Positions 1,422 to 19,917 of a DNA stretch of 39,863 nucleotides are shown piece after piece. The DNA lies in IMG/VR virus record IMGVR_UViG_2563366928_000005, positions 1 to 39,863 of that record, one strand, 5' to 3'. Within the stretch, counting starts at the first letter, position 1. Every line of letters begins with the position of its first letter. The notes beneath the pieces were generated by a model. That model had not been told where the DNA came from. It searched no databases and worked only from the letters and a program-made list of their open reading frames with translations. This DNA is from a virus (lineage: Duplodnaviria; Heunggongvirae; Uroviricota; Caudoviricetes). The translations under genes were made by a program, and so were the position numbers.

Positions 1422-2114
1422 TTAAAAATCAGCCTGACTCGGGATCAGTTTTTGCCAGATAACTGAAACGTATTTTGCCTGGTAACGGGCGTCATCAAGT
1501 GCATTATGGCGCTCACCTTCGAATGGAATAGCCGTTCTGGCATCGAAGTCTATGGCTTTCCCCAGCTCAACGATTGTGCGTACATCGCGATCGTTGTAGT
1601 AACGCCACGGGCAGGGGATCCCCTGCCGTTCGTATGAACGGCGCAAAATCGTGTTGTCGAAGTTGGCTCCATTTCCCCAAACCTGAACAAAAAATTCACC
1701 GGAGTTTTCGTCGATAAATTCCCGCAATTGTAACAGTGCATCATCTAACGGGATTTCATCGGTCATAATGGCAGATTGCGCTTCGCGTGATTGCTTAAGC
1801 CACCATTTAATGGTGTCCCGATCAATGACTCCGCCAGCAGTTTCCAGATCGATAGTCTTACTAAATTCCGGTCCCATATCTCCGGTTTGCGGATCGAAAA
1901 ATATTGCACCTATTGAGATGATCGGGGCATCAGGATTTTTTCCCATGGTTTCAAGGTCGATCATTAGATGGTCACACGTCCTGCTGGTGGATGTGATTTC
2001 GTGATGACCGTTCACCTTAATTGAGCGATCTGCCGTCTCGCCAGTTTCATTATCGCTATCGTGATGCTGATTGCCGCCAGTGTTCTCCTTGTGTGGATGT
2101 TCAGCGCCTTCCAT
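1422..2114 (-). CDS. DEDDh-type 3'-5' exonuclease (DnaQ-like fold)
   Basis: Exo I motif MIDLETMG and C-terminal H-x4-D motif [10 protein letters not shown] in the translation. Start uncertain: ATG at 2114 has a GGAGG RBS but overlaps the upstream gene by about 100 nt; alternative ATG at 1964. Confidence 0.7.
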
Positions 2115-3808
2115 TTCCTCCGGATCATCTTCCTGAACTTCAACCTGATACTCTTCATCGAATGTTTCCTGGTATGTTGCGCCACTGGTTCAGGCTGTTT
2201 CGTTCCTGGCTCGTTTTGTAACGCATTTGGGCTGTTTTGTTCCGCTTTTTGGTAGTTCCGTTCCGATTCATGCTGGTTCTGGTTCACAGAATCGCGGGTC
2301 TGGATCCCCTTAACCCATTTCGGATCATTCGGGTCACTAATCCCTTCAACAAATTCACCACGTGATGCAGCAAGCAACTTATCGGCGTCAGGCTGGCTGA
2401 TATTGGCTGCCTGCATAATTTTGTTTACTTCGTCAGCGGTAACTTTTATCGGCTCTGGTTGTTCTGAATCTTCAGCGGTATCTACATTTTGCGGTAAGCC
2501 CGTGTATGTGCCATTTTTTCGGGCAAAATATTCTTCTTTTGTGATTTCAGTGGCGCCAGCAGCCAGTGCCTTATCCAGACCAGAAAGTTTGTTTGCGCGA
2601 CCGCATTTTTCTCCGTCCTTATCTGCGAAGAGGAAATAGAACGGCCCCTCACGCTCTACAGATGGTTCAGCTTCCGGCGCGGTTTCATTTTTTGGGATAT
2701 CAGATACCTCAGTTTCCACTGCATCAGTTTGTGTTTCTGATGACTGGAGAACATCAACAGTGCCCAGGTCTGTTTCTTCATTCTCAAACACGCCCTTTGT
2801 CGTCAGGTATTCGCAGATATATTTGTTCAGTGCTATGGGATCTTTGTGAATGTCGATCGGACGCTCACGGACAAGGCCAAAAATAGTTTGGCGGTCGTAG
2901 CGAAGGGCATCAGGCTGTTTGCGCATTGATGCCGAGATACGCTTCCAGTCTTCGCGGTCGTTGTCGATAACTTCATTTTTTGCCCAGCGATGGATGCTGC
3001 CGTCAATGTTTCCGGCATCCACATCACCAGGCCAGAGAGCGTAGGCCAGTTCGTCATCCAGTGTTTTCCATGTCTGCTTGTATTCGCGATGAATGGCAGC
3101 AATGACCGGGCTGATTTTTCCTGTTGAATTTTCAGTGTACTGTTGATTGGCTCTGGCGCGGGCGAGATCAACAACAGACGTGTATTTTCCGGTTTCCTTG
3201 CGTTCACCTTCGCGACGTTTTTTCCAGATGCGCATCTCTGCCTGAATTTCGGGCCATTTAGCACCAGGAATACATTTATGCTTAACCCACCCAATGGCGT
3301 GCAACTTAAGCTCCGGATACATGGCGTTAACTTCTGGCATTTTCATCAACGCTTCAACGATATGTCCGTCGAATGTTGCCATGTCTTCCTGCAACAATTC
3401 CTGTGCGCTAATAACCATATCAACGGTGATGTTTTCACATGTGTCGAACTTAACCATGACAGCGTTCTGTACTTCAGGGGCCAGCTTGTCAAAAGTGACG
3501 TTCATCGGATCGGATTCAGTCTCAACCGGGACAAAGGAAGCAGACTCCTCATCCCAGCGGTTTTCCTGCATATATTCAGCATCCCAGGAATCGAGGGCAG
3601 GGCGGGGTATGCCGGGTTTATCCTCACAGACAATAAATTTATAAGCGCAGTCCTGAGCTGCAGGGAATTGCTCCAGAAATTGCCAATGAAATTTTGCGCG
3701 TGCGCGACGCTCATCACCAGCTTCAATGGCAGTGGCCACCGCAACAGCGCTATCTTCTTTTATGGCCTGTTCATCAGGAATAGCAGCGCAAATAAAGACC
3801 TTACTCAT
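2012..3808 (-). CDS. Large acidic early-region protein, unknown function
   Basis: 598-aa uninterrupted ORF in the early-left operon; no motif I recognise; low-complexity C-terminal tail overlaps the exonuclease ORF. Confidence 0.5.
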
Positions 3809-3903
3809 TTTGTTTTAACCTCATTACAGATTTCAGGGTGAACGAATCCCTGCCATTGCTGGCATTTTTAATCCGTTGGTATGGTGTTAATATGGCTGGA
3901 GGG

Positions 3904-4092
3904 TTATCCAGCCGGTGTTTCGTTATTCAGGTACAGCGATACTTTTTTTAGCGGGAGGCATTCACCAGAAATTTTTTGCTCGTCTCTTGCCTGGAGGCAG
4001 GATTCTTTACTTGCATAAATTCCGGTAATCACATTCTGTGATTCACCCGTTATAAGAAAAACCGTCATCATCAGTGCAAATGCTGAAGTCAT
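3904..4092 (-). CDS. Small protein with hydrophobic N-terminus (kil-position gene)
   Basis: 62 aa; N-terminal hydrophobic stretch FALMMTVFLIT then polar tail with two Cys; position corresponds to kil genes of lambda/Rac. Confidence 0.3.
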   Translation of the reverse strand: MTSAFALMMTVFLITGESQNVITGIYASKESCLQARDEQKISGECLPLKKVSLYLNNETPAG

Positions 4093-4277
4093 TAACGTTC
4101 TCCGAAAATACCAAGTTCAAGAAGAGCAATTCGGGAAAGTATGGAATTATCATTGAGCAGATAAGGCTCATATTTCCTCATATTAATGGCATCTTCAGTA
4201 AACTCCCGGTTACTGAGCAGAACACCAATATCAAAACAACCTTCAGACGTATTAACGTTTGGTAATAACGTTTCCAT
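4092..4277 (-). CDS. Small hypothetical protein
   Basis: 61-aa ORF whose stop abuts the start of the next small ORF (coupling at 4092). Confidence 0.3.
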   Translation of the reverse strand: METLLPNVNTSEGCFDIGVLLSNREFTEDAINMRKYEPYLLNDNSILSRIALLELGIFGER

Positions 4278-4848
4278 TATCGCGTCCTCAACAATGAATT
4301 TTGTGATGCAGTGCCTGGTGCCTCCAGGTGACGTTAACCAGTTAACAATTAACGCCGGGTTAGTTGATGCTCGTTACGCCCGTAAAATACCGCCTTACTG
4401 CTTTAACTGTTCCGCGTGCGCATAGCCGCATTCACCGCATCACAAAATTCACTTTAAAAAGGGCGGCAGAGCAGTCACGGAGTAAAACTGATACCGCCAA
4501 ATGTCACCAGAAAATTGATAACAGAGGGCGTTGTAGCGGGGTTGTCACTTAAGCGTATGGTCAACCTGACAACCCGGTGCATTTTCTGGAGCAATGGAGG
4601 AAACCCCAGCCATACTTACCGCCGCGCCATTTCGCGGAGTGCCACAACCGGAAGCGCACGGTCGAACTAAATTTAACGACACCGTACAGAGAGACCAATT
4701 TCGCCGTGCGCTTTCGCGTTATGCCCTGACTTTTCAGGGACATATCCTTTCAGTAAGCTGTCAGTGCCGGATGCTCACCCGTGTCCGGCGCACGCACTCC
4801 ACCTGACCCGTGGAGAACTCCTTAATTACCAACCCTCAGGAGGGTGAA

Positions 4849-5127
4849 ATGGATAAAAAGCAAATTGAGGCCCTGCAATCTATTATTGAAGAACAAGATG
4901 AAGCTATCAGGATTCTTTCATATCGCACTGATATGATACTAAATATGCTTTCTGCATTAACGGCTGCGCTTGGTGGTACAAAAACAAACGTATACCGCGA
5001 AGTTGTTATTCAACAGATAGATAAATTTGAAAAAACCATACCAGGTATTAATGCTCATCTTGCAGAACAAGAGAAAGACCATGCTCTTATGGCAATTTCT
5101 TCAGTAGCTCTCCCGAAAGTTGAGTAG
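4849..5127 (+). CDS. Hypothetical protein (AT-rich island, convergent with minus-strand operon)
   Basis: ATG at 4849 preceded by AGGAGGG RBS; 92 aa predicted helical; AT-rich codon usage; 3' end overlaps the convergent minus-strand ORF by 41 bp. Confidence 0.45.
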   Translation: MDKKQIEALQSIIEEQDEAIRILSYRTDMILNMLSALTAALGGTKTNVYREVVIQQIDKFEKTIPGINAHLAEQEKDHALMAISSVALPKVE

Positions 5128-5500
5128 TTTTAATTGTTGTTTTGAAATAATCACTGCTTTCACATTTGAGTGATTTCATGGCAATCCAAATGCGGGCCTC
5201 TGTGCCTGCATTTGGTTCCAGTTGCTGTAGACGTTTTGCGTCTTCCAAAAGTAAGGCGATAATGTGTTTCAGCTTCTCATCATTTGCTTGATTCTTGTTT
5301 TCAGGCGAATTCTGTCCGCCGAATAGGCGCTTCTCTTCATACAGACCTATAAAGGCACGACGCACGTTACCGGATATAGTATCGATGGTTTCCTTTTCTA
5401 CGGTACTCAGGTCAAGAGTCGCCAGTTGAGAGCGAACCACATTCGATGCCATTTCCTGGAATGGTACTGGTAAATCTTTAAATTCCATCGTCAACCTCAT
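5087..5500 (-). CDS. Hypothetical protein (second gene of repressor-linked operon)
   Basis: ATG at 5500 overlaps the upstream stop (ATGA); a second ATG at 5488 has a GAGG RBS; about 133-137 aa, no recognised motif. Confidence 0.45.
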   Translation of the reverse strand: MRLTMEFKDLPVPFQEMASNVVRSQLATLDLSTVEKETIDTISGNVRRAFIGLYEEKRLFGGQNSPENKNQANDEKLKHIIALLLEDAKRLQQLEPNAGTEARIWIAMKSLKCESSDYFKTTIKTTQLSGELLKKLP

Positions 5501-5733
5501 CAGTCAGTGTTTCTGGTTAACCAGCGACGCGCGCCAGCTTCAGTTTTAAACGTTTTGCTTCTGGTATACGTCATCGCGGTGAACGTACCGTCCTGGTTGG
5601 GGAACACGCCACATACCAGAGATTCGCTGTTGCCAAGATCGATAGTATCCATGCTGACCTCATTTCCCCTTAACGCCGGGGTAGCGGAACAAAAACCTGC
5701 TGCATAGTTATTAAAGTTGAACCCTGCCGTCAT
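5500..5733 (-). CDS. Hypothetical protein (first gene downstream of repressor)
   Basis: 77-aa ORF following operator-like palindromes at 5838..5875; no Arg-rich motif. Confidence 0.4.
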   Translation of the reverse strand: MTAGFNFNNYAAGFCSATPALRGNEVSMDTIDLGNSESLVCGVFPNQDGTFTAMTYTRSKTFKTEAGARRWLTRNTD

Positions 5734-5875: not shown

Positions 5876-5917
5876 AATGTTTGCGGTGTCTTAACTGGTG
5901 ACTAGTTGTTTGGTGAG

Positions 5918-6337
5918 CTATGATGCGTTTTGTGCTTTCTTTTTACGGATTTCTTCGTAGATCATATTGTAATACTGTTTTTTCTCTTCAAGAGTTTTTA
6001 ATAATTTATCCGCTTCACTTTCTGGCAGTTCGTCTAAGAGATCTAAAAAAATACGTTGTCGTGGCGTTAGAACCCTTGTTTCATAACTGGAGGCTGTGTT
6101 CGTTGATGATGAAACGATACCATCCATCCATCCCCGGGGTAACCCAAAGGACTCTTCGATAATCTCCACCATATCATCAGCGATCCGTTTTTTTCCCTTT
6201 TTCCCCTCTGGGTACAACATTCTTGATACATAAGAAGGCTCGCGCCCGATCTTTCTGGCCACGTTAACCGCTTTACCATCGCATTTCTCATCACGAATTT
6301 TGATGAGTTGCTGTCGTCTAAATTCATATTTGTCCAT
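5918..6337 (-). CDS. Prophage repressor, XRE/CI-type helix-turn-helix
   Basis: 139 aa; HTH segment KAVNVARKIGREPSYVSRML; divergent from a Cro-like gene across an operator-bearing intergenic region. Confidence 0.7.
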   Translation of the reverse strand: MDKYEFRRQQLIKIRDEKCDGKAVNVARKIGREPSYVSRMLYPEGKKGKKRIADDMVEIIEESFGLPRGWMDGIVSSSTNTASSYETRVLTPRQRIFLDLLDELPESEADKLLKTLEEKKQYYNMIYEEIRKKKAQNAS

Positions 6338-6374
6338 AGGTAAATAATAGATGCGATTACCGCAAGGTAAACAA

Positions 6375-6410
6375 CCTGTGGGTATTGACTTTTGTTTACC
6401 TGTGGGTATT
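6375..6410. promoter_or_regulatory. Operator repeats in the repressor/cro divergent promoter region
   Basis: Two direct copies of ACCTGTGGGTATT (6375..6387, 6398..6410); candidate -35 TTGACT at 6384..6389 reading toward the cro-like gene. Confidence 0.55.
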
Positions 6411-6437
6411 CTTTGCTGTGTTTACTAAGGAGTAGCT

Positions 6438-6719
6438 ATGGAAGAATTAAGAATATTTCTCAATTCTCTTTCGTCAGATGAACAGCGTATGTTTGCATGC
6501 GAGTGTGGTACCAGCATCGGTTATCTAAGAAAGGCATTGAGTAAAGGTCAAGTGTTAGGGGCATCGTTATGTGTCCTTATTGAGCGAGCCAGTAATGGTG
6601 AAGTTACACGTCAGCAACTAAGGCCTTTTGATTGGATGAATATTTGGCCCGAGCTGGAAGATACCAAAACGTTAACACAACCACTTTCTAGGAGCTTGAT
6701 TCATGAAAATCAAGCATGA
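6438..6719 (+). CDS. Cro-like / YdaS-like HTH regulator
   Basis: 93 aa, first gene of the rightward operon divergent from the repressor; HTH-like CGTSIGYLRKALS. Confidence 0.6.
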   Translation: MEELRIFLNSLSSDEQRMFACECGTSIGYLRKALSKGQVLGASLCVLIERASNGEVTRQQLRPFDWMNIWPELEDTKTLTQPLSRSLIHENQA

Positions 6720-7128
6720 ACACATCCGCATGGCGATGAATGCCTGGGCGCGTCCTGATGGCGAAAAAGTTCCAGCAGCTGGAATAACCCAGGCTTATTT
6801 TGAGTTGGGTATGACGTTCCCGGAACTGTATGACGACAGCCATCCGGAAGCCCTGGCTCGCAATACCCAGAAAATTTTCCGCTGGGTAGAGAAAGACACC
6901 CCTGATGCTGTTAAAAAAATGCAGGCTCTGTTACCGGCGATCGAAAAGGCGATGCCGCCTTTGCTGGTGGCCCGTATGCGCAGCCACAGTTCTGAATATT
7001 ACCGTGAGATCGTCGAACGGAGGGATCGGCTGGTGAAGGATGTCGATGATTTTGTTGCGTCAGCGGTTGTTTTGTATGACCAGATGAATCGCGGCGGCCC
7101 GGCAGGGAATGCTGTGGTGATGCACTAA
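6703..7128 (+). CDS. CII-like / YdaT-like regulator
   Basis: 141 aa immediately after the Cro-like gene; size and order match the ydaS-ydaT pair of Rac-type prophages; assignment by position. Confidence 0.45.
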   Translation: MKIKHEHIRMAMNAWARPDGEKVPAAGITQAYFELGMTFPELYDDSHPEALARNTQKIFRWVEKDTPDAVKKMQALLPAIEKAMPPLLVARMRSHSSEYYREIVERRDRLVKDVDDFVASAVVLYDQMNRGGPAGNAVVMH

Positions 7129-7135
7129 AAGCACG

Positions 7136-8113
7136 GTGTTCGGGGGTTTTATGAGCAGCAAGCTTCATGGTCTTGTCTGGGAAGGGTGCGCCTTCACCGG
7201 CATGATCTTATCCAGGGTGGCGGTTATGGCCCGTCTTGCAGACTACAGCAATGACGAGGGCGTGTCATGGCCTGCCATTGAAACTATCCGGCGTCAGATC
7301 GGTGCAAGAAGTGAATCCACAGTGAAATCGGCTATTGCAGAACTGGCGAAAGAGGGCTGGCTGACGAAGGAAGAGCGTAAGATCGGTGGGCGTAATGTAA
7401 GCAATATCTATCGGCTTAATGTGGAAAAACTCGAAGCAGCTGCGGCGGCGGCGCGTGAGTCATATAAACCGAAAAGAAAAATTAGCCCGGCAAAAAATGA
7501 CCCGTTAACAGTTGACCCGTCAAATATTGACCCCTCAACGGTTGACCCGTCAAATTTTGATGGATCAACTGTTGATAAAAAACTGCCGATTAGGGGGGCG
7601 ATGATTGACCCCGATCCGTCAGTATTAAAACCTGATCCGTCAGATAAAAGATCTTCTTGTCCGGACGCTTCGCAACCGGACCCGCAGACGGCTGAACAGG
7701 ATTTTTTAACCCGACACCCTGACGCGGTTGTGTTCAGTGCGAAAAAACGCCAGTGGGGAAGTCAGGAAGATTTGGTGTGCGCACAGTGGATCTGGGGACG
7801 AATCGTGAGTCTTTACGAGCAGGCGGCCAGCTATGATGGCGAGATCACTAGACCGAAAGAACCCAACTGGACAGCATGGGCCAATGACGTTCGCACAATG
7901 CGGATGCTGGATGGCAGAACTCACAGACAAATTTGTGAAATGTTTGGGCGTCTCCAGCGGGATTCGTTCTGGGTAAAAAACATCATGAGTCCGGCAAAAC
8001 TCCGGGAAAAATGGGATGAACTGGTTATCCGCCTGGGGCGTTCGCCTGCGCAGCGTTGCGTGAATCACATTTCTGAACCGGACACTGAAATACCGCCGGG
8101 ATTCAGGGGGTGA
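7136..8113 (+). CDS. Replication initiator, lambda O-like (winged-helix N-terminus, iteron-containing)
   Basis: 325 aa; gene contains 15-bp periodic direct repeats (7498..7572) encoding a repeated DPxxVDPSN peptide, as lambda O contains ori. Confidence 0.7.
   Translation: MFGGFMSSKLHGLVWEGCAFTGMILSRVAVMARLADYSNDEGVSWPAIETIRRQIGARSESTVKSAIAELAKEGWLTKEERKIGGRNVSNIYRLNVEKLEAAAAAARESYKPKRKISPAKNDPLTVDPSNIDPSTVDPSNFDGSTVDKKLPIRGAMIDPDPSVLKPDPSDKRSSCPDASQPDPQTAEQDFLTRHPDAVVFSAKKRQWGSQEDLVCAQWIWGRIVSLYEQAASYDGEITRPKEPNWTAWANDVRTMRMLDGRTHRQICEMFGRLQRDSFWVKNIMSPAKLREKWDELVIRLGRSPAQRCVNHISEPDTEIPPGFRG
7498..7572. repeat. Iterons of a putative phage replication origin inside the O-like gene
   Basis: Four to five tandem 15-bp units, consensus TGACCCGTCAAnnnT, followed by GATCCGTCAG repeats and an AT-rich stretch (to about 7650). 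Confidence 0.65.
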
Positions 8114-8119
8114 CGTGTC

Positions 8120-8866
8120 ATGAAAAACATTGCGGCAGTTGGGGTTCTTGAACGTATTCGCAGACTTGCACCACAGGGGTCGGTTCCACCGTACCGGACG
8201 GTGGAGGAGTGGCGGGAATGGCAACTTGCTGAAGGACGAAAACGCAGCGAGGAGATTAACCGCCAGAATCGCCAGTTGCGGGTGGAAAAAATCCTGAATC
8301 GTTCGGGCATCCAGCCTCTGCACAGCAAATGCTCGTTTGCAAATTATCAGGTGCAGAACGACGGGCAAAAATACGCGCTGAGCCAGGCCAAATCCATAGC
8401 TGACGAACTGATGACCGGGTGCACGAATTTTGTGTTCAGCGGTAAAACCGGCACCGGGAAAAATCACCTTGCAGCGGCGATGGGCAACCGGCTGATGGTG
8501 AAGGGGCGCAGCGTGATTATCGTCACCGTGTCTGACGTCATGAGCGTGTTGCATGACAGCTACGACAACGGCAAATCCGGGGAAAAATTTTTACAGGAGC
8601 TTTGCGGGGTTGATTTGCTGGTCCTGGATGAAATAGGCGTTCAGCGGGAGACGAAAAACGAGCAGGTGGTATTGCACCAGATAATTGATCGCCGGACAGC
8701 ATCACTGTGCAGTGTCGGGATGTTAACAAACCTGAATCATGCCGCAATGAGTACGCTTCTTGGTGAGAGGATTATGGACCGCATGACCATGAACGGTGGT
8801 CGATGGGTGACGTTTAACTGGGATAGCTGGCGTCCAAATGTCAGCAATATGAGGGTTGTGAAGTAA
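8120..8866 (+). CDS. DnaC-like helicase loader (AAA+ ATPase)
   Basis: Walker A GKTGTGKNHLA and Walker B LLVLDEIG in the translation; directly follows the initiator. Confidence 0.85.
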   Translation: MKNIAAVGVLERIRRLAPQGSVPPYRTVEEWREWQLAEGRKRSEEINRQNRQLRVEKILNRSGIQPLHSKCSFANYQVQNDGQKYALSQAKSIADELMTGCTNFVFSGKTGTGKNHLAAAMGNRLMVKGRSVIIVTVSDVMSVLHDSYDNGKSGEKFLQELCGVDLLVLDEIGVQRETKNEQVVLHQIIDRRTASLCSVGMLTNLNHAAMSTLLGERIMDRMTMNGGRWVTFNWDSWRPNVSNMRVVK

Positions 8867-8887: not shown

Positions 8888-9658
8888 ATGGAAACCGTAT
8901 CTGACGCACTGAAAGCACTGAAAAAAGCCTCTTCACATGTGGTGGCAGCTCGCCTTGGAATCAGTCGTGAAGAGGCTGTCAACGAGCTGTGGGAACTCAA
9001 AAGAAAAGGCGTCGTTGATAAAACTGGTCACACCTGGTTTCTGGCTGGCGAAGGTGAATCCCGGGTAACCGAAGAGCGGCCAGTAAAATCTGAAGCACAG
9101 GATATGCTGACCGGGGAGGTCGAACAAAAAGTTACCGCAGACATGATGATTGAGTTTATCGGTCAGGATGGGGCTAAAACGTGTGAGGAACTGGCGGGTA
9201 AGTTCGGTGTCAGTACTCGCAAGGTTGCTTCCACGCTGGCGGTGGTAACCGCAACGGGGCGGCTGGCACGCGTTAATCAGAACGGTAAATTTCGTTACTG
9301 CATGCCGGGCGATAATTTACCAGCAGAGCCGAAAGCCGCGCTGGTAACGGAAAGTGATGGTAAGGCCTTTCCTCAGCCAGCAGGTGCTGCGTTACCAGTC
9401 CGGGAAGCCGCAACACAGGAAGAAATTAAAACAGAAACTGTGGCGGACATTGTGCAGCCGTTGCCATCGTTTACCGAAACGCAAGCAGATGAGCTGATTT
9501 TTCCGTCCCTTCGCAGGGCAAACCTGGCGCTGCGCAGGGCGAAAAGTGATGTTCAGAAGTGGGAGCGAGTCTGCGCCGCGCTGCGGGAGCTGAACAAGCA
9601 CCGGGATATTGTTCGACAGATTACTGATTCTTCCCGCCGTGTTGTATCGGAAAAGTGA
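8888..9658 (+). CDS. Hypothetical protein
   Basis: 256-aa ORF with RBS; no recognised motif. Confidence 0.5.
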   Translation: METVSDALKALKKASSHVVAARLGISREEAVNELWELKRKGVVDKTGHTWFLAGEGESRVTEERPVKSEAQDMLTGEVEQKVTADMMIEFIGQDGAKTCEELAGKFGVSTRKVASTLAVVTATGRLARVNQNGKFRYCMPGDNLPAEPKAALVTESDGKAFPQPAGAALPVREAATQEEIKTETVADIVQPLPSFTETQADELIFPSLRRANLALRRAKSDVQKWERVCAALRELNKHRDIVRQITDSSRRVVSEK

Positions 9659-9673
9659 TTGCCGGAGGCGCTT

Positions 9674-10099
9674 ATGGCAAAAGTATTTACACAAGAAGAG
9701 CGGGAAAAAATTAAAGGGCAGGTTGTTGAACTTGTACGTCTGAGCGGTCGCGAGACGTTGCGGCAACTGGAAGCCAGGACAGGTGCGACAAGATATCTGA
9801 TGAGTGTTCTCGCCAGAGAGCTGGTTGCCAGTGGCGATGTATACAACTCTGGTTACGGGTTATTCCCGTCTGAACAGGCGCGTAAGGACTGGCAAAATGC
9901 TCGCAAAAAACTCTCAAGGGCAAAGGTGAAGAAACCTGCAGTGGTTGATCCGGACCTTATCTGGTCGTTACCAGACGGCGAAATACGCCGCTACGACAGG
10001 CGCCTGAATATAATCTGTCGCGAGTGCCGGAAGAGCGAAGCTATGCAGCGTGTACTGGCATTTTATCAAGGAAATGTTAGGTATTTTAGACGTTACTAG
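9674..10099 (+). CDS. Hypothetical protein
   Basis: ATG at 9674 with GGAGG RBS (track ORF starts at TTG 9659); about 141 aa, basic, no recognised motif. Confidence 0.45.
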   Translation: MAKVFTQEEREKIKGQVVELVRLSGRETLRQLEARTGATRYLMSVLARELVASGDVYNSGYGLFPSEQARKDWQNARKKLSRAKVKKPAVVDPDLIWSLPDGEIRRYDRRLNIICRECRKSEAMQRVLAFYQGNVRYFRRY

Positions 10100-10252
10100 A
10101 TTAAAGAGCATTAGTTCAGATGTGAATTGACATTTTCATGGCGCAGGGTAGAGCCAGCGTGGTTGTCCGCTTTGCGTCAAAACCAGATATTACCAGATTT
10201 AGACATATATTCCCGATAGACCTGCTCTGATGCTACACTCTGTGCTATTTTC

Positions 10253-10939
10253 ATGACCCCAATAAAAATATTTATGACTATTGCTGATTTCAAACGGCCT
10301 AAATTGGAGCTCCCAAACGGGGCAAACAAACTACTACTGCACTCTTGCTGTGCTCCATGTTCCGGTGAAGTGATGGAGGCGCTTCAGGCCTCGGGAATCG
10401 ACTACACCATCTTTTTCTACAACCCGAACATTCATCCTCAGAAAGAGTATTTAATTCGTAAGGATGAAAATATTCGCTTTGCTGAACAACACGGCGTGCC
10501 GTTTATCGATGCTGATTACGACACCGACAACTGGTTTGAACGTGCCAAAGGAATGGAATGGGAGCCTGAGAGGGGGATCCGTTGTACCATGTGTTTTGAC
10601 ATGCGTTTTGAGCGGACAGCGTTGTACGCTGCTGAAAATGGTTTCAGTGTGATCAGCAGTTCACTGGGCATTTCACGCTGGAAAAATATGCAGCAGGTTA
10701 ACGAGTGTGGGCGGCGAGCTGTTGCGCATTATCCGGGTATGGTGTACTGGGATTATAACTGGCGCAAGCAGGGCGGCTCGTCCCGTATGATTGAAATCAG
10801 CAAGCGCGAAAAATTCTATCAGCAGGAATATTGTGGCTGTGTGTATTCTCTGCGCGATACCAATCTACACCGCAAATCTCAGGGACGCCCTCTTATCAAA
10901 ATTGGCCAACTCCACTACGGAAAAGAAGAGAAGGAGTGA
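10253..10939 (+). CDS. queH: Epoxyqueuosine reductase QueH-like (DUF208)
   Basis: Translation carries [28 protein letters not shown] and YCGCVYS, matching the conserved Cys-rich signature of QueH as I recall it. Confidence 0.75.
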
Positions 10940-11176
10940 TTTTATGGATCACCTTTCTGATTGATTTCATATTGGCGAGGTGACGTGAGTTAAGTAGAAT
11001 GGCTGCGGGTGCTTGAGGCTATCTGTCTCAGGCATGAACACTGAAAGGCAGATAGAGAAAAGCCCCAGTTAACATTTCGCGTCCTGCAAGACGCTTAACA
11101 TTAATCTGAGGCCCAATCTATGTCTCACAAATGTAGGTTAGCCTCTTACGTGCCGAAAGGCAAGGGGAAGCAGGCT

Positions 11177-11332
11177 ATGAAGCAGCAAAAGGCGATGTTA
11201 ATCGCCCTGATCGTCATCTGTTTAACCGTCATAGTGACGGCACTGGTAACGAGGAAAGACCTCTGCGAGGTACGACTCCGAACCGGCCAGACGGAGGTCG
11301 CTGTCTTCACAGCTTACGAACCTGAGGAGTAA
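11177..11332 (+). CDS. hok: Hok/Gef-family type I toxin
   Basis: MKQQKAMLIALIVICLTVIVTALVTRKDLCEVRLRTGQTEVAVFTAYEPEE is nearly identical to HokD/RelF as I recall it; followed by a strong terminator. Confidence 0.85.
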   Translation: MKQQKAMLIALIVICLTVIVTALVTRKDLCEVRLRTGQTEVAVFTAYEPEE

Positions 11333-11400
11333 GAGACCTGGCGGGGGAGAAATCCCTCGCCACCTCTGATGTGTCAGGCATCCTCAACGCACCCGCACTT

Positions 11401-11430
11401 AACCCGCTTCGGCGGGTTTTGTTTTTTTCT
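11401..11430 (+). terminator. Rho-independent terminator after hok
   Basis: AACCCGC-TTCG-GCGGGTT perfect 7-bp stem followed by a T-rich run. Confidence 0.7.
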
Positions 11431-11499
11431 GGCATTCTGGTTTACAATTCGCACGTCAGCCTGAACACCTGACACCTGCTGCGCCAGCAGAGAAAACAG

Positions 11500-11772
11500 A
11501 TGGCGCACAAAACCAAATTTCACAATTCTGATACCGACCTTGCCATCCGGCATGGGCGGCGTTCACACGCATTTAAAACCGACTGGTACCAACACCCACC
11601 ATGTACTGAAGAACAGGCCGAATGGCTAATTCATAACTACCGCAGACGCGGATACGAGATTAAGAAAGCCCTCAGCCTCGATTATCGTCACTGGATAATC
11701 TCCGTCAGGCTTCCTTACTCTGAACGCCCACCGCGTCCGTCCCGCACATTCCAGCAACGCATCTGGAGGTAA
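11500..11772 (+). CDS. Hypothetical protein
   Basis: 90-aa ORF directly upstream of and abutting the DUF968 gene. Confidence 0.35.
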   Translation: MAHKTKFHNSDTDLAIRHGRRSHAFKTDWYQHPPCTEEQAEWLIHNYRRRGYEIKKALSLDYRHWIISVRLPYSERPPRPSRTFQQRIWR

Positions 11773-11773
11773 C

Positions 11774-12829
11774 GTGCGGGTATTACTTCGACCTGTTCTG
11801 GTACCGGAACTCGGGCTGGTGATCGTTAAGCCGGGCCGTGAATCCATGCCGGTATTCCACAATACCCGGGTACTGGTGGAGCCGGAACCGAAAAGCATGC
11901 GTAATCTGCCGTCCGGGGTCGTTCCTGCCGTTCGCCAGCCGCTGGCGGAGGATAAATCATTACTGCCATTTTTCAGCGACGAACGAGTGATTCGTGCTGC
12001 TGGTGGCGCTGGCGCATTGTCTGACTGGTTACTGCGCCATGTTAAATCCTGCCAGTGGCCACACGGCGATTATCACCACAGTGAAACCGTCATTCACCGT
12101 TATGGTACCGGCGCAATGGTGTTGTGCTGGCACTGCGACAACCAGCTGCGCGACCAGACCTCCGAATCACTCGGGCAACTTGCTCACCAAAACCTGTCTG
12201 CATGGATGATTGACGTCATACGCCATGCAATGAATGGCTCGCAGGAACGGGAATTATCGCTGGCTGAATTATCCTGGTGGGCGGTCCGCAATCAGGTGGC
12301 GGACGCGCTACCGGAAGCGGTATTACGTCGTTCGCTGGGGTTGCGTGCGGAAAAAATCCGCTCAATGTACCGTGAAAGCGACATCGTACCGGGAGAGCAG
12401 ACCGCCACCAGCATACTGAAGCAGCGCACAAAAAATCTTGCGCCGCTGCCTCACGCCCACCAGCAAAACCCGCCACAGGAAAAGACGGTGGTCAGCATTG
12501 CCGTTGATCCGGAGTCACCGGCTCAGTATCTCCAGCGCCAGAAATCACAACGGGAAGAGATGCCTGTATACACGCGTTGGGTAAAAACGCAGAAATGCAT
12601 GACGTGTGGCAATCAGGCAGATGATCCGCATCACATCATTGGTCATGGACTGGGAGGGATGGGAACAAAGGCTGATGATTTGTTTGTTATTCCGCTGTGC
12701 CGTAAATGCCATAGCGAACTACACGCCGGGGTAAAAGATTTTGAAGAAAAACACGGCAGCCAGCTGTTGTTGCTGATTCGTTTTTTAATGCACGCGAGAA
12801 ATTCGGGTGTTCTGAAGTGGAAAGCATAA
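11774..12829 (+). CDS. DUF968-like protein with C-terminal HNH-type motif
   Basis: 351 aa; C-terminal CGNQADDPHHIIGHG...CRKCHSELH resembles an HNH nuclease motif; size and position recall YdfU-like prophage proteins. Confidence 0.55.
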   Translation: MRVLLRPVLVPELGLVIVKPGRESMPVFHNTRVLVEPEPKSMRNLPSGVVPAVRQPLAEDKSLLPFFSDERVIRAAGGAGALSDWLLRHVKSCQWPHGDYHHSETVIHRYGTGAMVLCWHCDNQLRDQTSESLGQLAHQNLSAWMIDVIRHAMNGSQERELSLAELSWWAVRNQVADALPEAVLRRSLGLRAEKIRSMYRESDIVPGEQTATSILKQRTKNLAPLPHAHQQNPPQEKTVVSIAVDPESPAQYLQRQKSQREEMPVYTRWVKTQKCMTCGNQADDPHHIIGHGLGGMGTKADDLFVIPLCRKCHSELHAGVKDFEEKHGSQLLLLIRFLMHARNSGVLKWKA

Positions 12830-15493: not shown

Positions 15494-15543
15494 AACGGAT
15501 GAGATTGCAGAATTAATTACGCACCATTATTATTCTGCTCCCG

Positions 15544-15618
15544 GCCCTTTAGCTCAGTGGTGAGAGCGAGCGACTCATAATCGCCAGGTCGCTGGTTCAA
15601 ATCCAGCAAGGGCCACCA
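15544..15618 (+). tRNA. tRNA with CAT anticodon, most similar to tRNA-Ile2 (lysidine type); Met not excluded
   Basis: Cloverleaf folded by hand: acceptor GGCCCTT/AAGGGCC, D-arm, anticodon loop CTCATAA, T-arm GCTGG-TTCAAAT-CCAGC, encoded CCA. Confidence 0.85.
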
Positions 15619-18990: not shown

Positions 18991-19881
18991 ATGAAGAAAA
19001 AATACGAACTGGTTGTTAAAGGGATAAATAATTACCCGGATAAGATTACTGTTACTGTGGCACTGGAAGTTGGTGGGTATCCGTCACTGTTGTTGCCAGA
19101 TGTGGCGATTAGTCTTGACCGTACTGAAGGTGCCACGCTGGAGTTTTACGAAGCTGAGGCGAAAAAGCAGGCGAAGCAGTTTTTCATGGATGTTGCTGCC
19201 GGGTTATGTGAAGGGGATGAGCAGTCGCCGGAAAAGCGCCCCGTAATTTTAGAGGCGCAGGATGTGTTGATAACCTACAAAGGAAAGCTACCGGGAAGAA
19301 TTACTTGTTCTCTGAAGATGCCGCCGTCAACACTGCGGTCAGAAAAAGATGATGTTGAATCACGTATTGAAAAACTGGAGAGCTACGTCGTTGAGCTGAA
19401 TAAGAAATGGTCGATATTGGTGCCTTCTGACGATGAAAAGCAGTTTGCTGCGTTTGACGATTATTGTCGGAAAGTGATGAGCAGAAATCTCGCAGAGTGT
19501 TTCAGTATTCATAATGATAATTTCAGTGAGCTGGAATGGGAGTGTAACCGGCCATCCTTTGTTGTATCCGGTGATGCTGGGAAAATAACCATCTCAGAAA
19601 ATGGGAAAGTAACACCTCCATCGCACCAGCACAGTGAGGAGCTCATTGAATTTGCCATTGATTACCTGAAGAACAATAAAAAGCAGGGGCTGATGAAGCG
19701 CGTTGGCCGTTGCATGGGATATCTTCAGGTAGCCGCTGAGATTGAAGCGCTGGCCAGTGGTGCTGATAAGGATGCAATTGTGCGGGAGGCTCTTCTTCGT
19801 GATTTTAATACTCCACCCTTTAAAAAAGTGCCGGCTTACTGGCTTCATCCGGGGCTGACTTATCTTAAAGTGCGTATTTAG
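18991..19881 (+). CDS. Hypothetical protein inserted between holin and endolysin
   Basis: 296 aa, no transmembrane segment or recognised motif; GGGGAGAG RBS; 4-nt gap from the holin stop. Confidence 0.6.
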   Translation: MKKKYELVVKGINNYPDKITVTVALEVGGYPSLLLPDVAISLDRTEGATLEFYEAEAKKQAKQFFMDVAAGLCEGDEQSPEKRPVILEAQDVLITYKGKLPGRITCSLKMPPSTLRSEKDDVESRIEKLESYVVELNKKWSILVPSDDEKQFAAFDDYCRKVMSRNLAECFSIHNDNFSELEWECNRPSFVVSGDAGKITISENGKVTPPSHQHSEELIEFAIDYLKNNKKQGLMKRVGRCMGYLQVAAEIEALASGADKDAIVREALLRDFNTPPFKKVPAYWLHPGLTYLKVRI

Positions 19882-19917
19882 TGGGCCAGGGACAGCGGCT
19901 GAATATTTAATATATCC

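What the first reader, a model, noticed from the sequence alone, without database searches (positions are those of the whole stretch)
10253..10939. Prophage-encoded QueH-like epoxyqueuosine reductase in the nin region
The 228-aa product shows the Cys-rich motifs I associate with QueH/DUF208 ([32 protein letters not shown]), the cobalamin-independent enzyme for the last step of queuosine-tRNA synthesis. Enterobacterial hosts normally use B12-dependent QueG, so a phage-borne QueH would be an unusual auxiliary tRNA-modification gene. It sits 4.6 kb from a phage tRNA cluster, in the same prophage as an orphan DNA methyltransferase. No other queuosine or 7-deazaguanine pathway genes are present in this window.
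Basis: partly seen in the sequence, partly recalled or inferred. Interest (0 to 1): 0.6.

Follow-up and report, generated by a model that had tools for sequence, protein, structure and literature searches.

The report
Prophage-borne QueH tRNA queuosine reductase
A lambda-like prophage of E. coli carries an intact, well-conserved copy of QueH, the vitamin-B12-independent enzyme for the last step of queuosine tRNA modification, next to the host's own B12-dependent QueG; databases already name the gene, but why phages and plasmids carry it has not been studied.

Summary
Window 10253..10939 (+) is an intact ORF with a full-length match to Pfam PF02677 QueH (E 1.1e-65). It keeps every invariant residue of the family, and its best structural match is T. 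maritima QueH. The real start is probably ATG 10274 (221 aa).

It is not rare. 995 of 5426 complete E. coli genomes carry it, always in addition to queG (5426/5426), and RefSeq already names it QueH. It also occurs in the isolated phage HannyBb, in 188 IMG/VR stretches and on 305 plasmids.

The closest relatives (80-92% identity) are chromosomal QueH genes of other Enterobacterales. Prophage alleles show dN/dS of 0.05-0.09 with dS up to 0.44, so the protein is kept functional.

The gene moves as a tight cassette: a conserved extended -10-like element (TGCTACACT, 10231..10239), a short leader and the ORF, with no terminator of its own.

The most likely role is a B12-independent backup for converting epoxyqueuosine to queuosine in the lysogen. 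Activity and expression are untested.

The nearby phage tRNAs are not queuosine substrates, and the methyltransferase has no visible connection. I found no paper on phage-borne or plasmid-borne QueH. Interest is moderate: a new genetic context for a known enzyme.

The parts
10274..10939 (+). queH coding sequence from the probable true start (221 aa plus stop). The longest ORF starts at 10253 (228 aa).
   Evidence: ORF found. Pfam PF02677 at E 1.1e-65. RefSeq start and product name. Homologue N-termini align to 10274. dN/dS 0.046-0.094 among five prophage alleles.
10231..10239 (+). Conserved extended -10-like promoter element TGcTACACT (hexamer TACACT at 10234..10239). The expected transcript start is near 10247. 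A weak -35 candidate, TTCCCG, lies at 10210..10215.
   Evidence: Single exact match in the window. The same or a one-mismatch motif lies at the same distance from the ORF in phage, Klebsiella IncF plasmid, Enterobacter, Kluyvera, Scandinavium and Erwinia copies whose DNA further upstream is unrelated. At most 1 mismatch in 14 of 85 loci against about 1.5 expected from shuffles, with positions clustered at -94..-101. Function as a promoter is inferred, not shown. The generic sigma-70 scan did not report it because it requires a -35 match.
10225..10943 (+). Minimal mobile cassette shared between different prophage backgrounds: -10 element, leader and ORF. There is no terminator of its own.
   Evidence: Homology with the Rac-like prophage of strain GPEC657 spans only 10225..10943. 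Homology with HannyBb and E. coli B spans 10158..10945, while the flanks differ. No terminator-like site was found between 10939 and 11400.
9659..10099 (+). Upstream neighbour: DUF977 (Ren-like) gene at the end of the replication module. It is the constant left neighbour of queH in all prophage contexts examined.
   Evidence: RefSeq annotation in five contexts and in phage HannyBb.
11007..11332 (+). Downstream neighbour: the hok/sok type I toxin-antitoxin module (hokD-like). It is not part of the queH cassette and is a variable right neighbour.
   Evidence: Rfam sok RF01794, 120.5 bits, at 11007..11182. hokD annotation. In other prophages the right neighbour is a DUF1971 gene or a KwaB-like gene pair.

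Best explanation
The gene encodes a genuine, functional QueH. QueH is an iron-sulfur enzyme that needs no cobalamin. It reduces the epoxide of epoxyqueuosine (oQ) at position 34 of tRNA-Asp, -Asn, -His and -Tyr to queuosine (Q).

A lambdoid phage lineage captured the gene from the chromosome of an Enterobacterales bacterium as a compact cassette: native extended -10 promoter, a leader of about 27 nt, and the ORF. The cassette sits in the accessory-gene slot between the replication module (DUF977) and the hok/nin/Q region.

In the lysogen it gives E. coli a second, B12-independent route for the last step of Q synthesis, alongside the cobalamin-dependent QueG. It therefore acts as a lysogenic-conversion ('moron') gene that completes Q modification when corrinoids are scarce. 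E. coli does not make B12 de novo.

Shown here: family membership, intact catalytic residues, purifying selection, cassette structure, conserved promoter-like element, co-occurrence with queG, and spread on prophages and plasmids.

Inferred: enzyme activity in E. coli, expression in the uninduced lysogen, and the fitness benefit under B12 limitation.

Sub-confidences: about 0.85 that it is an active oQ reductase; about 0.5 that it is expressed from its own promoter in the lysogen; about 0.45 that B12 independence is the selected benefit.
For: Family and residues:
- Pfam QueH at E 1.1e-65 over the full profile.
- phmmer to T. maritima QueH 7lc5 at E 7.8e-22.
- AlphaFold model (pLDDT 75, pTM 0.76) whose best PDB match is 7lc5 (E 5e-10, TM 0.72 normalised to the target), followed by PP-loop folds.
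- In 65 full-length representatives from 50%-identity clusters, C32, C33, C111, C114, C194, C196, N59, E65, Y66, R69, E106, R110, K144, Q191, G195 and S199 are invariant or missing only through a gap in one sequence. All are present in the window protein. Position 36 is Cys in 61 of 65, as here.

Origin:
- 80-92% amino-acid identity to chromosomal QueH of Scandinavium, Kluyvera, Enterobacter, Erwinia, Providencia and others.
- In Providencia it lies near tmcA-like and purC-like genes, and in Erwinia next to a purL-like gene. These neighbours are read from precomputed Pfam domains, and both are housekeeping neighbourhoods.

Selection:
- dN/dS of 0.046-0.094 with dS up to 0.44 among five prophage alleles.
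- 59 of 60 sampled E. coli copies are annotated as intact.

Cassette and promoter.

Host background:
- queG is in 5426 of 5426 E. coli genomes.
- QueG's step is cobalamin-dependent (PMC4646009 and its reference to Frey 1988).
- Most bacteria that use cobamides cannot make them (PMC11841063).

Precedent for QueG and QueH together, described as redundant and differently expressed: S. aureus (PMC13443448).

Recurrent carriage on mobile elements: 995 E. coli genomes, phage HannyBb, 188 IMG/VR stretches and 305 plasmids including conjugative IncF plasmids of Klebsiella.
Against: - No activity or expression data exist for this copy.
- No phenotype is known for loss of the oQ-to-Q step. Deleting queG did not change growth in one tested setting (PMC11841063), so a benefit is hard to argue from physiology.
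- The gene lies on the same strand as the early-right operon with no terminator before it. It could therefore be transcribed only on induction.
- The -10-like element has only a weak -35. It carries substitutions in two alleles: CACACT in WCHEC4533 and TACACA in GPEC657.
- NCBIfam has no model that hits it.
- The structure model is of moderate confidence only.
Confidence: 0.72

Rival explanations
1. Lytic-cycle helper. QueH is transcribed only as part of the delayed-early rightward operon after induction. It converts the host's oQ-tRNA pool to Q-tRNA to tune decoding of NAU/NAC codons in phage late genes. It would benefit the phage rather than the lysogen.
For: The gene has the same orientation as the replication and nin genes and lies between them and Q, with no terminator-like site upstream. 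It is carried by an isolated complete phage, HannyBb. Phages of this type also carry tRNA genes, which shows an investment in translation.
Against: NAY codon share and U/C choice in the phage genes look ordinary (NAU fraction 0.53 in early genes, 0.62 in late genes; comparison with typical E. coli usage is from my own knowledge). The gene stays intact in cryptic, non-inducible prophages such as the Qin-like element of E. coli B, and on conjugative plasmids that have no lytic cycle. It brings a conserved promoter-like element of its own. No difference in decoding between oQ and Q is known.
Confidence: 0.15
2. Redundant passenger. The enzyme may work, but with queG present it gives no benefit. 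It is common only because the prophage and plasmid backbones that carry it are successful.
For: queG is universal in E. coli. No phenotype is known for the oQ-to-Q step. 707 of 995 copies are at least 99% identical, consistent with recent clonal spread, for example in ST131 and O104:H4.
Against: Alleles that differ at up to 44% of synonymous sites keep dN/dS near 0.05, as expected of a gene under long-term constraint. The same cassette has been placed independently in different prophage types, on IncF plasmids, and in non-syntenic chromosomal sites of Enterobacter, Kluyvera and Scandinavium. Only 1 of 60 sampled copies is truncated.
Confidence: 0.1
3. A different target. The enzyme acts on something other than host tRNA oQ34. 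Candidates are a modified base in phage DNA, or tRNA changed so as to alter sensitivity to anticodon nucleases that cut Q-family tRNAs, which would be a counter-defence role.
For: The slot right of queH holds defence-type cargo in some prophages (KwaB-like genes, hok/sok). Other queuosine-pathway relatives have been recruited to phage DNA modification and to defence systems (PMC6884629; PMC13639016 abstract).
Against: At 80-92% identity to housekeeping QueH, with every invariant residue kept, there is no sign of a change of function. There is no DpdA/TGT gene or preQ0-synthesis gene in the prophage. There is no PADLOC hit. No oQ or Q is known in DNA (my own knowledge).
Confidence: 0.03

Closest known systems
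QueH (DUF208, PF02677) of Thermotoga maritima, PDB 7lc5/7lc7/9deu
   Same: Same family and fold. The CC..., C..C and CGC cysteine groups and the other invariant residues align.
   Different: Only about 31% identity. The window protein has Cys36 where T. maritima has Asp13, a residue the depositors mutated (D13N in 9dco, read from the aligned sequence). Cys is the majority state, 61 of 65 representatives. The window protein also has N- and C-terminal extensions of about 20 residues.
Chromosomal QueH of Enterobacterales (Erwinia, Providencia, Serratia, Photorhabdus, Enterobacter, Kluyvera, Scandinavium)
   Same: 80-92% amino-acid identity, the same length, and the same upstream -10-like element in many of them.
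   Different: In Erwinia and Providencia the gene sits in housekeeping neighbourhoods. Here it sits inside a lambdoid prophage of a species whose core genome uses QueG.
[quoted passage not shown]
   Same: It catalyses the same reaction on the same tRNAs (PMC4646009; PMC9508795).
   Different: An unrelated protein family and cofactor. QueG needs cobalamin and QueH does not. Both are present in the carrier strains.
Organisms with both QueG and QueH, e.g. Staphylococcus aureus
   Same: Two enzymes for one step, with different cofactors. The authors read this as adaptation to cofactor availability (PMC13443448).
   Different: In S. aureus both are described as genes of the organism itself. In E. 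coli the second enzyme arrives on prophages and plasmids.
Phage 7-deazaguanine gene clusters (DpdA with FolE/QueD/QueE/QueC) that modify phage DNA
   Same: They are phage-borne genes drawn from the queuosine and archaeosine pathways.
   Different: Those clusters make preQ0-type bases and insert them into DNA. That survey found no QueA, QueG or QueH in the viruses it analysed (PMC6884629). Here a lone tRNA-specific last-step enzyme is present, with no transglycosylase and no precursor-synthesis gene.

Membership tests
QueH / DUF208 (PF02677) epoxyqueuosine reductase | Significant full-length match to the family profile above the curated threshold | tested here: met
   E 1.1e-65, 221.5 bits against a cut-off of 23.5; profile positions 1-174 of 175.
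QueH / DUF208 (PF02677) epoxyqueuosine reductase | Conserved cysteine set (CCxPC/D near the N-terminus, CxxC in the middle, CGC near the C-terminus) and the other invariant residues | tested here: met
   C32, C33, C36, C111, C114, C194 and C196, plus N59, E65, Y66, R69, E106, R110, K144, Q191, G195 and S199 are all present. They are invariant or nearly so in 65 diverse representatives.
QueH / DUF208 (PF02677) epoxyqueuosine reductase | QueH fold (adenine-nucleotide alpha-hydrolase-like core) | tested here: met
   The best PDB match of the AlphaFold model (pLDDT 75) is T. maritima QueH (E 5e-10, TMt 0.72). The next matches are TtuA and LarE. The model is of moderate confidence.
QueH / DUF208 (PF02677) epoxyqueuosine reductase | Orthology with QueH of queuosine-making bacteria | tested here: met
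   80-92% identity to chromosomal QueH in many Enterobacterales and 75-80% in other Proteobacteria. Housekeeping neighbourhoods in Providencia and Erwinia.
QueH / DUF208 (PF02677) epoxyqueuosine reductase | Binds a [4Fe-4S] cluster plus an adjacent iron | not testable with these tools
   This needs purified protein with spectroscopy or a crystal structure. Only the ligand residues could be checked.
QueH / DUF208 (PF02677) epoxyqueuosine reductase | Converts oQ-tRNA to Q-tRNA in vivo or in vitro | not testable with these tools
   This needs complementation of delta-queG and LC-MS of tRNA nucleosides.
Prophage accessory ('moron', lysogenic-conversion) gene | Located in a phage genome but not needed for the phage life cycle, and present or absent among related phages | tested here: met
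   It lies in the prophage next to ompW, in phage HannyBb and in 188 IMG/VR stretches. It is absent from 82% of E. coli genomes, although 5376 of 5426 match some part of the first 25 kb of this window, which is nearly all prophage.
Prophage accessory ('moron', lysogenic-conversion) gene | Own promoter, independent of the phage early and late operons | tested here: inconclusive
   A conserved extended -10-like motif travels with the ORF across unrelated contexts. No transcript data are available, and the generic scan found no full sigma-70 promoter.
Prophage accessory ('moron', lysogenic-conversion) gene | Own terminator | tested here: not met
   The shared cassette ends 4-6 nt after the stop codon. 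The first terminator-like site is at 11401, after hok.
Phage 7-deazaguanine DNA-modification system | DpdA/TGT-type transglycosylase and preQ0-synthesis genes (FolE, QueD, QueE, QueC) in the phage | tested here: not met
   None is annotated in the RefSeq record that is 99.5-99.9% identical to the whole window.
Known anti-phage defence systems (PADLOC) | Match to a defence-system protein model | tested here: not met
   No PADLOC family matches QueH at E <= 0.001.

The most novel reading that the evidence does not exclude
QueH is a recurrent cargo of mobile elements in enteric bacteria that already have QueG. It is found on lambdoid prophages, on conjugative IncF plasmids, and in non-syntenic chromosomal sites. 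It travels with its own promoter and is under strong purifying selection. This would mean that finishing oQ to Q has a real fitness value when corrinoids are scarce, for example in gut competition for B12. Natural queH+ and queH- E. coli, such as strain B against K-12, would then be the first convenient handle on what the last step of queuosine synthesis is for.
Probability: 0.33. Interest if true: 0.55.

Novelty: new member of a known kind. Interest (0 to 1): 0.4.

Why it matters
The enzyme family and its reaction are known, and RefSeq already names this gene. What appears unreported is the context.

A 2019 survey of queuosine-pathway genes in viruses found no QueA, QueG or QueH (PMC6884629). 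Six of my eight full-text searches looked for phage-borne or plasmid-borne QueH and found no paper on it.

Here the gene is in 18% of complete E. coli genomes, including ST131, O104:H4, O157:H7 and E. coli B. It is also on hundreds of plasmids, and it is under strong constraint.

If it is active, it makes Q synthesis independent of vitamin B12 in those strains. That bears on three things:
- how tRNA modification responds to corrinoid supply in the gut;
- the unanswered question of whether oQ and Q differ functionally;
- lab practice, because B-derived strains would differ from K-12 in Q/oQ status in B12-free media.

Tried and rejected
- NCBIfam: no model hit, although RefSeq names the protein.
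- PADLOC: no defence-model hit for QueH or its close neighbours. The methyltransferase hit type II MTase models, and a DnaC-like ATPase gave weak hits.
- Generic promoter and terminator scan of 9600..11800: nothing on the + strand before the ORF and no terminator after it. The conserved -10 element only emerged from comparing contexts.
- Rfam at relaxed threshold on 9500..12000: no preQ1 or other riboswitch in the leader. It found only sok and a sub-threshold isrK-like hit.
- Codon usage of Q-decoded codons (His, Asn, Asp, Tyr) in phage genes: no unusual bias, so it does not support a translation-tuning role.
- Link between QueH and the phage tRNA cluster: rejected, because none of the three tRNAs has a GUN anticodon.
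- Link to DNA 7-deazaguanine modification: rejected for lack of any partner gene.
- The Asp13-to-Cys difference from the crystal structure as a sign of altered function: rejected, because Cys is the majority state in the family.
- Papers not held in the library: the QueH discovery paper (PMC5495094), the QueH structure paper (PMC8884141) and Frey 1988 (PMC211089). Statements about the metal site and about complementation rest on my own knowledge and on how other papers cite them.
- Several 'QueH' text hits were author names.

Full report
**1. The observation**

Window 10253..10939 (+) is an intact 228-codon ORF. It matches Pfam PF02677 (QueH) over the whole profile at E 1.1e-65, 221.5 bits against a cut-off of 23.5. 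It also matches the solved QueH of Thermotoga maritima, 7lc5, at E 7.8e-22.

PHROGs holds the same protein as phrog_3217, 'unknown function'. NCBIfam has no model for it. An AlphaFold model built on 30 homologues (pLDDT 75, pTM 0.76) finds T. maritima QueH as its best PDB match (E 5e-10, TM 0.72 normalised to the target). PP-loop enzymes such as TtuA and LarE follow.

**2. Start codon and catalytic residues**

RefSeq starts the gene at ATG 10274, giving 221 aa. The N-termini of chromosomal homologues align to that start. The seven extra residues from 10253 are therefore probably not translated.

I aligned 65 full-length representatives taken from a search of 1.8 billion sequences, each representing a cluster at 50% identity. 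Six cysteines (32, 33, 111, 114, 194, 196 in 228-aa numbering) and N59, E65, Y66, R69, E106, R110, K144, Q191, G195 and S199 are invariant or missing only through a gap in one sequence. All are present here.

Position 36 is Cys here and Asp13 in the crystal structure. The depositors mutated that residue (D13N in 9dco, C9S in 9d86; 9d86 is named as the C9S mutant). Cys is the state in 61 of 65 representatives. This is the mainstream form of the enzyme, not a divergent one.

**3. Where it sits**

The window is a lambdoid prophage inserted next to ompW. It is 99.5-99.9% identical over nearly its whole length to one in E. coli AF14.

The gene order is: integrase, excisionase, exonuclease, dicB, repressor and Cro-like genes, ydaT, an O-like gene, a DnaC-like gene, DUF1627, DUF977, queH, hok/sok, DUF968, rusA, Q, a DNA methyltransferase, three tRNAs, lysis genes, and head and tail genes.

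No other queuosine or 7-deazaguanine gene is annotated. The three tRNAs have anticodons CAU, UCG and UCU. None is a queuosine substrate, since queuosine is made in tRNAs with GUN anticodons (PMC5372724 abstract). The same goes for the methyltransferase.

**4. How common it is**

The gene is in 995 of 5426 complete E. coli genomes. It is mostly single-copy and chromosomal, and RefSeq names it 'epoxyqueuosine reductase QueH'. In a sample of 60 taken evenly down the ranking, 59 are full-length. Carriers include ST131, O104:H4, O157:H7, O111, APEC O18 and E. coli B.

It is also in the isolated phage HannyBb, at the same position and annotated as hypothetical, and in 188 IMG/VR stretches. Its 90%-identity cluster has 2308 member sequences, including copies from Shigella, Enterobacter and Klebsiella.

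The host gene queG is present in all 5426 genomes. Every carrier therefore has both enzymes.

**5. Origin**

The nearest relatives outside the prophage cluster are QueH genes of other Enterobacterales:
- Scandinavium 92%, Kluyvera 91%, Enterobacter 88-90%, Symbiopectobacterium 87%;
- Erwinia, Pantoea, Dickeya, Serratia, Photorhabdus and Providencia at 79-86%;
- still 75-80% in Pseudomonas, Stenotrophomonas and Sphingomonas.

In Providencia the gene lies near tmcA-like and purC-like genes. In Erwinia it lies between a purL-like gene and a two-component sensor kinase. These neighbours are read from precomputed Pfam domains, and both are housekeeping neighbourhoods.

In Scandinavium, Kluyvera and four Enterobacter species the flanks share no similarity with one another and carry no lambdoid modules. 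In these QueG-type Enterobacteriaceae the gene therefore looks like an accessory gene at variable sites.

**6. It is also on plasmids**

A tblastn search of PLSDB finds QueH on 305 plasmid records: Klebsiella 99, Escherichia 68, Bacillus 48, Ligilactobacillus 32 and Acinetobacter 23. Of these, 136 are predicted conjugative.

On a K. pneumoniae IncF plasmid it lies 1.2 kb from repA, among cargo genes, at 92% identity. On another it sits between IS elements.

In deposited phage genomes the yield is thin beyond HannyBb. There are two very large 'Acinetobacter phage' records, about 18 unannotated faecal contigs at 32-52% identity, and a few Staphylococcus and Listeria records that may include host DNA.

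**7. Selection**

Five prophage alleles were compared: the window, HannyBb, E. coli B, GPEC657 and WCHEC4533. They differ at up to 44% of synonymous sites, yet dN/dS is 0.046-0.094. The protein has been kept under constraint for a long time while resident in phages. This argues against a decaying passenger.

**8. The cassette and its likely promoter**

Comparing prophages with different neighbours shows how little DNA moves with the gene. The shared block is 10225..10943 in a Rac-like prophage and 10158..10945 in HannyBb and E. coli B.

The left neighbour is always DUF977. The right neighbour varies: hok/sok, a DUF1971 gene, or a KwaB-like pair. There is no terminator before 11401.

Aligning the upstream DNA of phage, plasmid and chromosomal copies shows one conserved island in otherwise unrelated sequence. 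It reads TGCTACACT, or TGCTACAAT in some copies, and lies about 35 nt before ATG 10274. This is the pattern of an extended -10 promoter element (TGnTAnnnT).

Across 85 loci the motif occurs with at most one mismatch in 14, against about 1.5 expected from shuffled upstream regions. Matches with up to two mismatches cluster at -94..-101 from the LLLH codon. In the window it lies at 10231..10239.

I infer that the gene brought its native promoter along and can be expressed in the lysogen. This is an inference. The element has only a weak -35, two alleles carry a substitution in the hexamer, and I have no transcript data.

**9. Most likely function**

QueG's step requires cobalamin (PMC4646009, citing Frey 1988). 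Most bacteria that use cobamides cannot make them (PMC11841063). That E. coli does not synthesise B12 de novo is established knowledge. QueH does the same reaction with iron only (PMC9508795; PMC13443448).

The simplest reading is a B12-independent backup that completes oQ to Q in tRNA-Asp, -Asn, -His and -Tyr of the lysogen. S. aureus offers a precedent: QueG and QueH coexist there and are expressed differently, which the authors relate to cofactor supply.

The weak point is that no phenotype is known for the oQ-to-Q step. Deleting queG did not change growth in the one setting I found.

**10. Rivals**

- A purely lytic-cycle role cannot be excluded, because the gene is co-oriented with the early-right operon. 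Three things argue against it: ordinary NAY codon usage in phage genes, retention in a cryptic prophage of E. coli B, and carriage on plasmids.
- A neutral passenger is unlikely given the dN/dS values and the repeated independent placements.
- A new target, in DNA or in counter-defence, has no support. There is no partner gene, no PADLOC hit, and near-identity to housekeeping enzymes.

**11. Novelty**

The enzyme, its reaction and this gene's name are already known. Carriage by mobile elements appears unreported. A 2019 survey stated that no QueA, QueG or QueH homologues were found in the viruses it analysed (PMC6884629). My searches for QueH or DUF208 together with prophage, phage, plasmid, auxiliary metabolic genes or the RefSeq accessions found nothing relevant. 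I rate it a new member of a known kind, in a new genetic context, with moderate interest.

Noticed in passing
PLSDB hits; L173 (NZ_CP040995.1) 8001-8669; L174 (NZ_CP089512.1) 4946-5614: QueH is on 305 plasmid records (Klebsiella 99, Escherichia 68, Bacillus 48, Ligilactobacillus 32, Acinetobacter 23; 136 predicted conjugative). Examples are IncF plasmids of K. pneumoniae, where it lies near repA or between IS elements at 92% identity to the prophage copy.
   Followed up: partly
L089 (E. coli B-ZidR, NZ_CP117469.1) 5022-5687: E. coli B carries an intact queH allele (93.9% nt identity) in a Qin-like cryptic prophage (dicB, dicC, hokD, rem). B-derived lab strains may therefore differ from K-12 in Q/oQ status when grown without B12. 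QueG has been expressed in BL21(DE3) for biochemistry.
   Followed up: partly
window 11007-11332: A hok/sok type I toxin-antitoxin module lies directly downstream of queH (Rfam sok, 120.5 bits; hokD-like ORF at 11120..11332). A sub-threshold isrK-like match sits at 11341..11422, overlapping the only terminator-like hairpin at 11401..11418.
   Followed up: no
window 15543-15618: ARAGORN calls the first phage tRNA 'Met (CAT)', but RefSeq annotates the same gene as tRNA-Ile. That would fit an ileZ-type tRNA whose CAU anticodon is read as Ile after lysidine modification. The trio is then Ile/Arg/Arg.
   Followed up: no
window 1422-3808 (- strand): The prophage exonuclease gene is split into two overlapping ORFs (230 and 598 aa), where related prophages have one 2472-nt gene. 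RefSeq flags it as frameshifted in the nearest genome. The prophage may be starting to decay.
   Followed up: no
L091 (WCHEC4533) 5896-7535; L090 (GPEC657) 6290-6628: The slot to the right of queH is a variable cargo site. One prophage has a pair of genes that includes a KwaB-like (Kiwa defence) protein, another has a DUF1971 gene, and here it is hok/sok.
   Followed up: no
window 19327-19907: About 580 bp between the holin region and the lysozyme gene do not align to the otherwise 99.5-99.9% identical prophage of strain AF14. This is a small replaced segment in the lysis region.
   Followed up: no
L097 (Enterobacter sp. ECC-175) 2677-5669: In this Enterobacter chromosome queH lies about 1 kb downstream of a gene I took from its N-terminal sequence to be icd, with an mnmA-like gene nearby. 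No annotation or domain search was run on these. icd is a known integration site for mobile elements in E. coli (my own knowledge), so queH may sit in an island here.
   Followed up: no
window 8120-8866: The DnaC-like ATP-binding replication protein gives weak PADLOC hits (DrmD at 6.9e-09, Avs2, AbiO). These most likely reflect shared ATPase motifs rather than a defence role.
   Followed up: no
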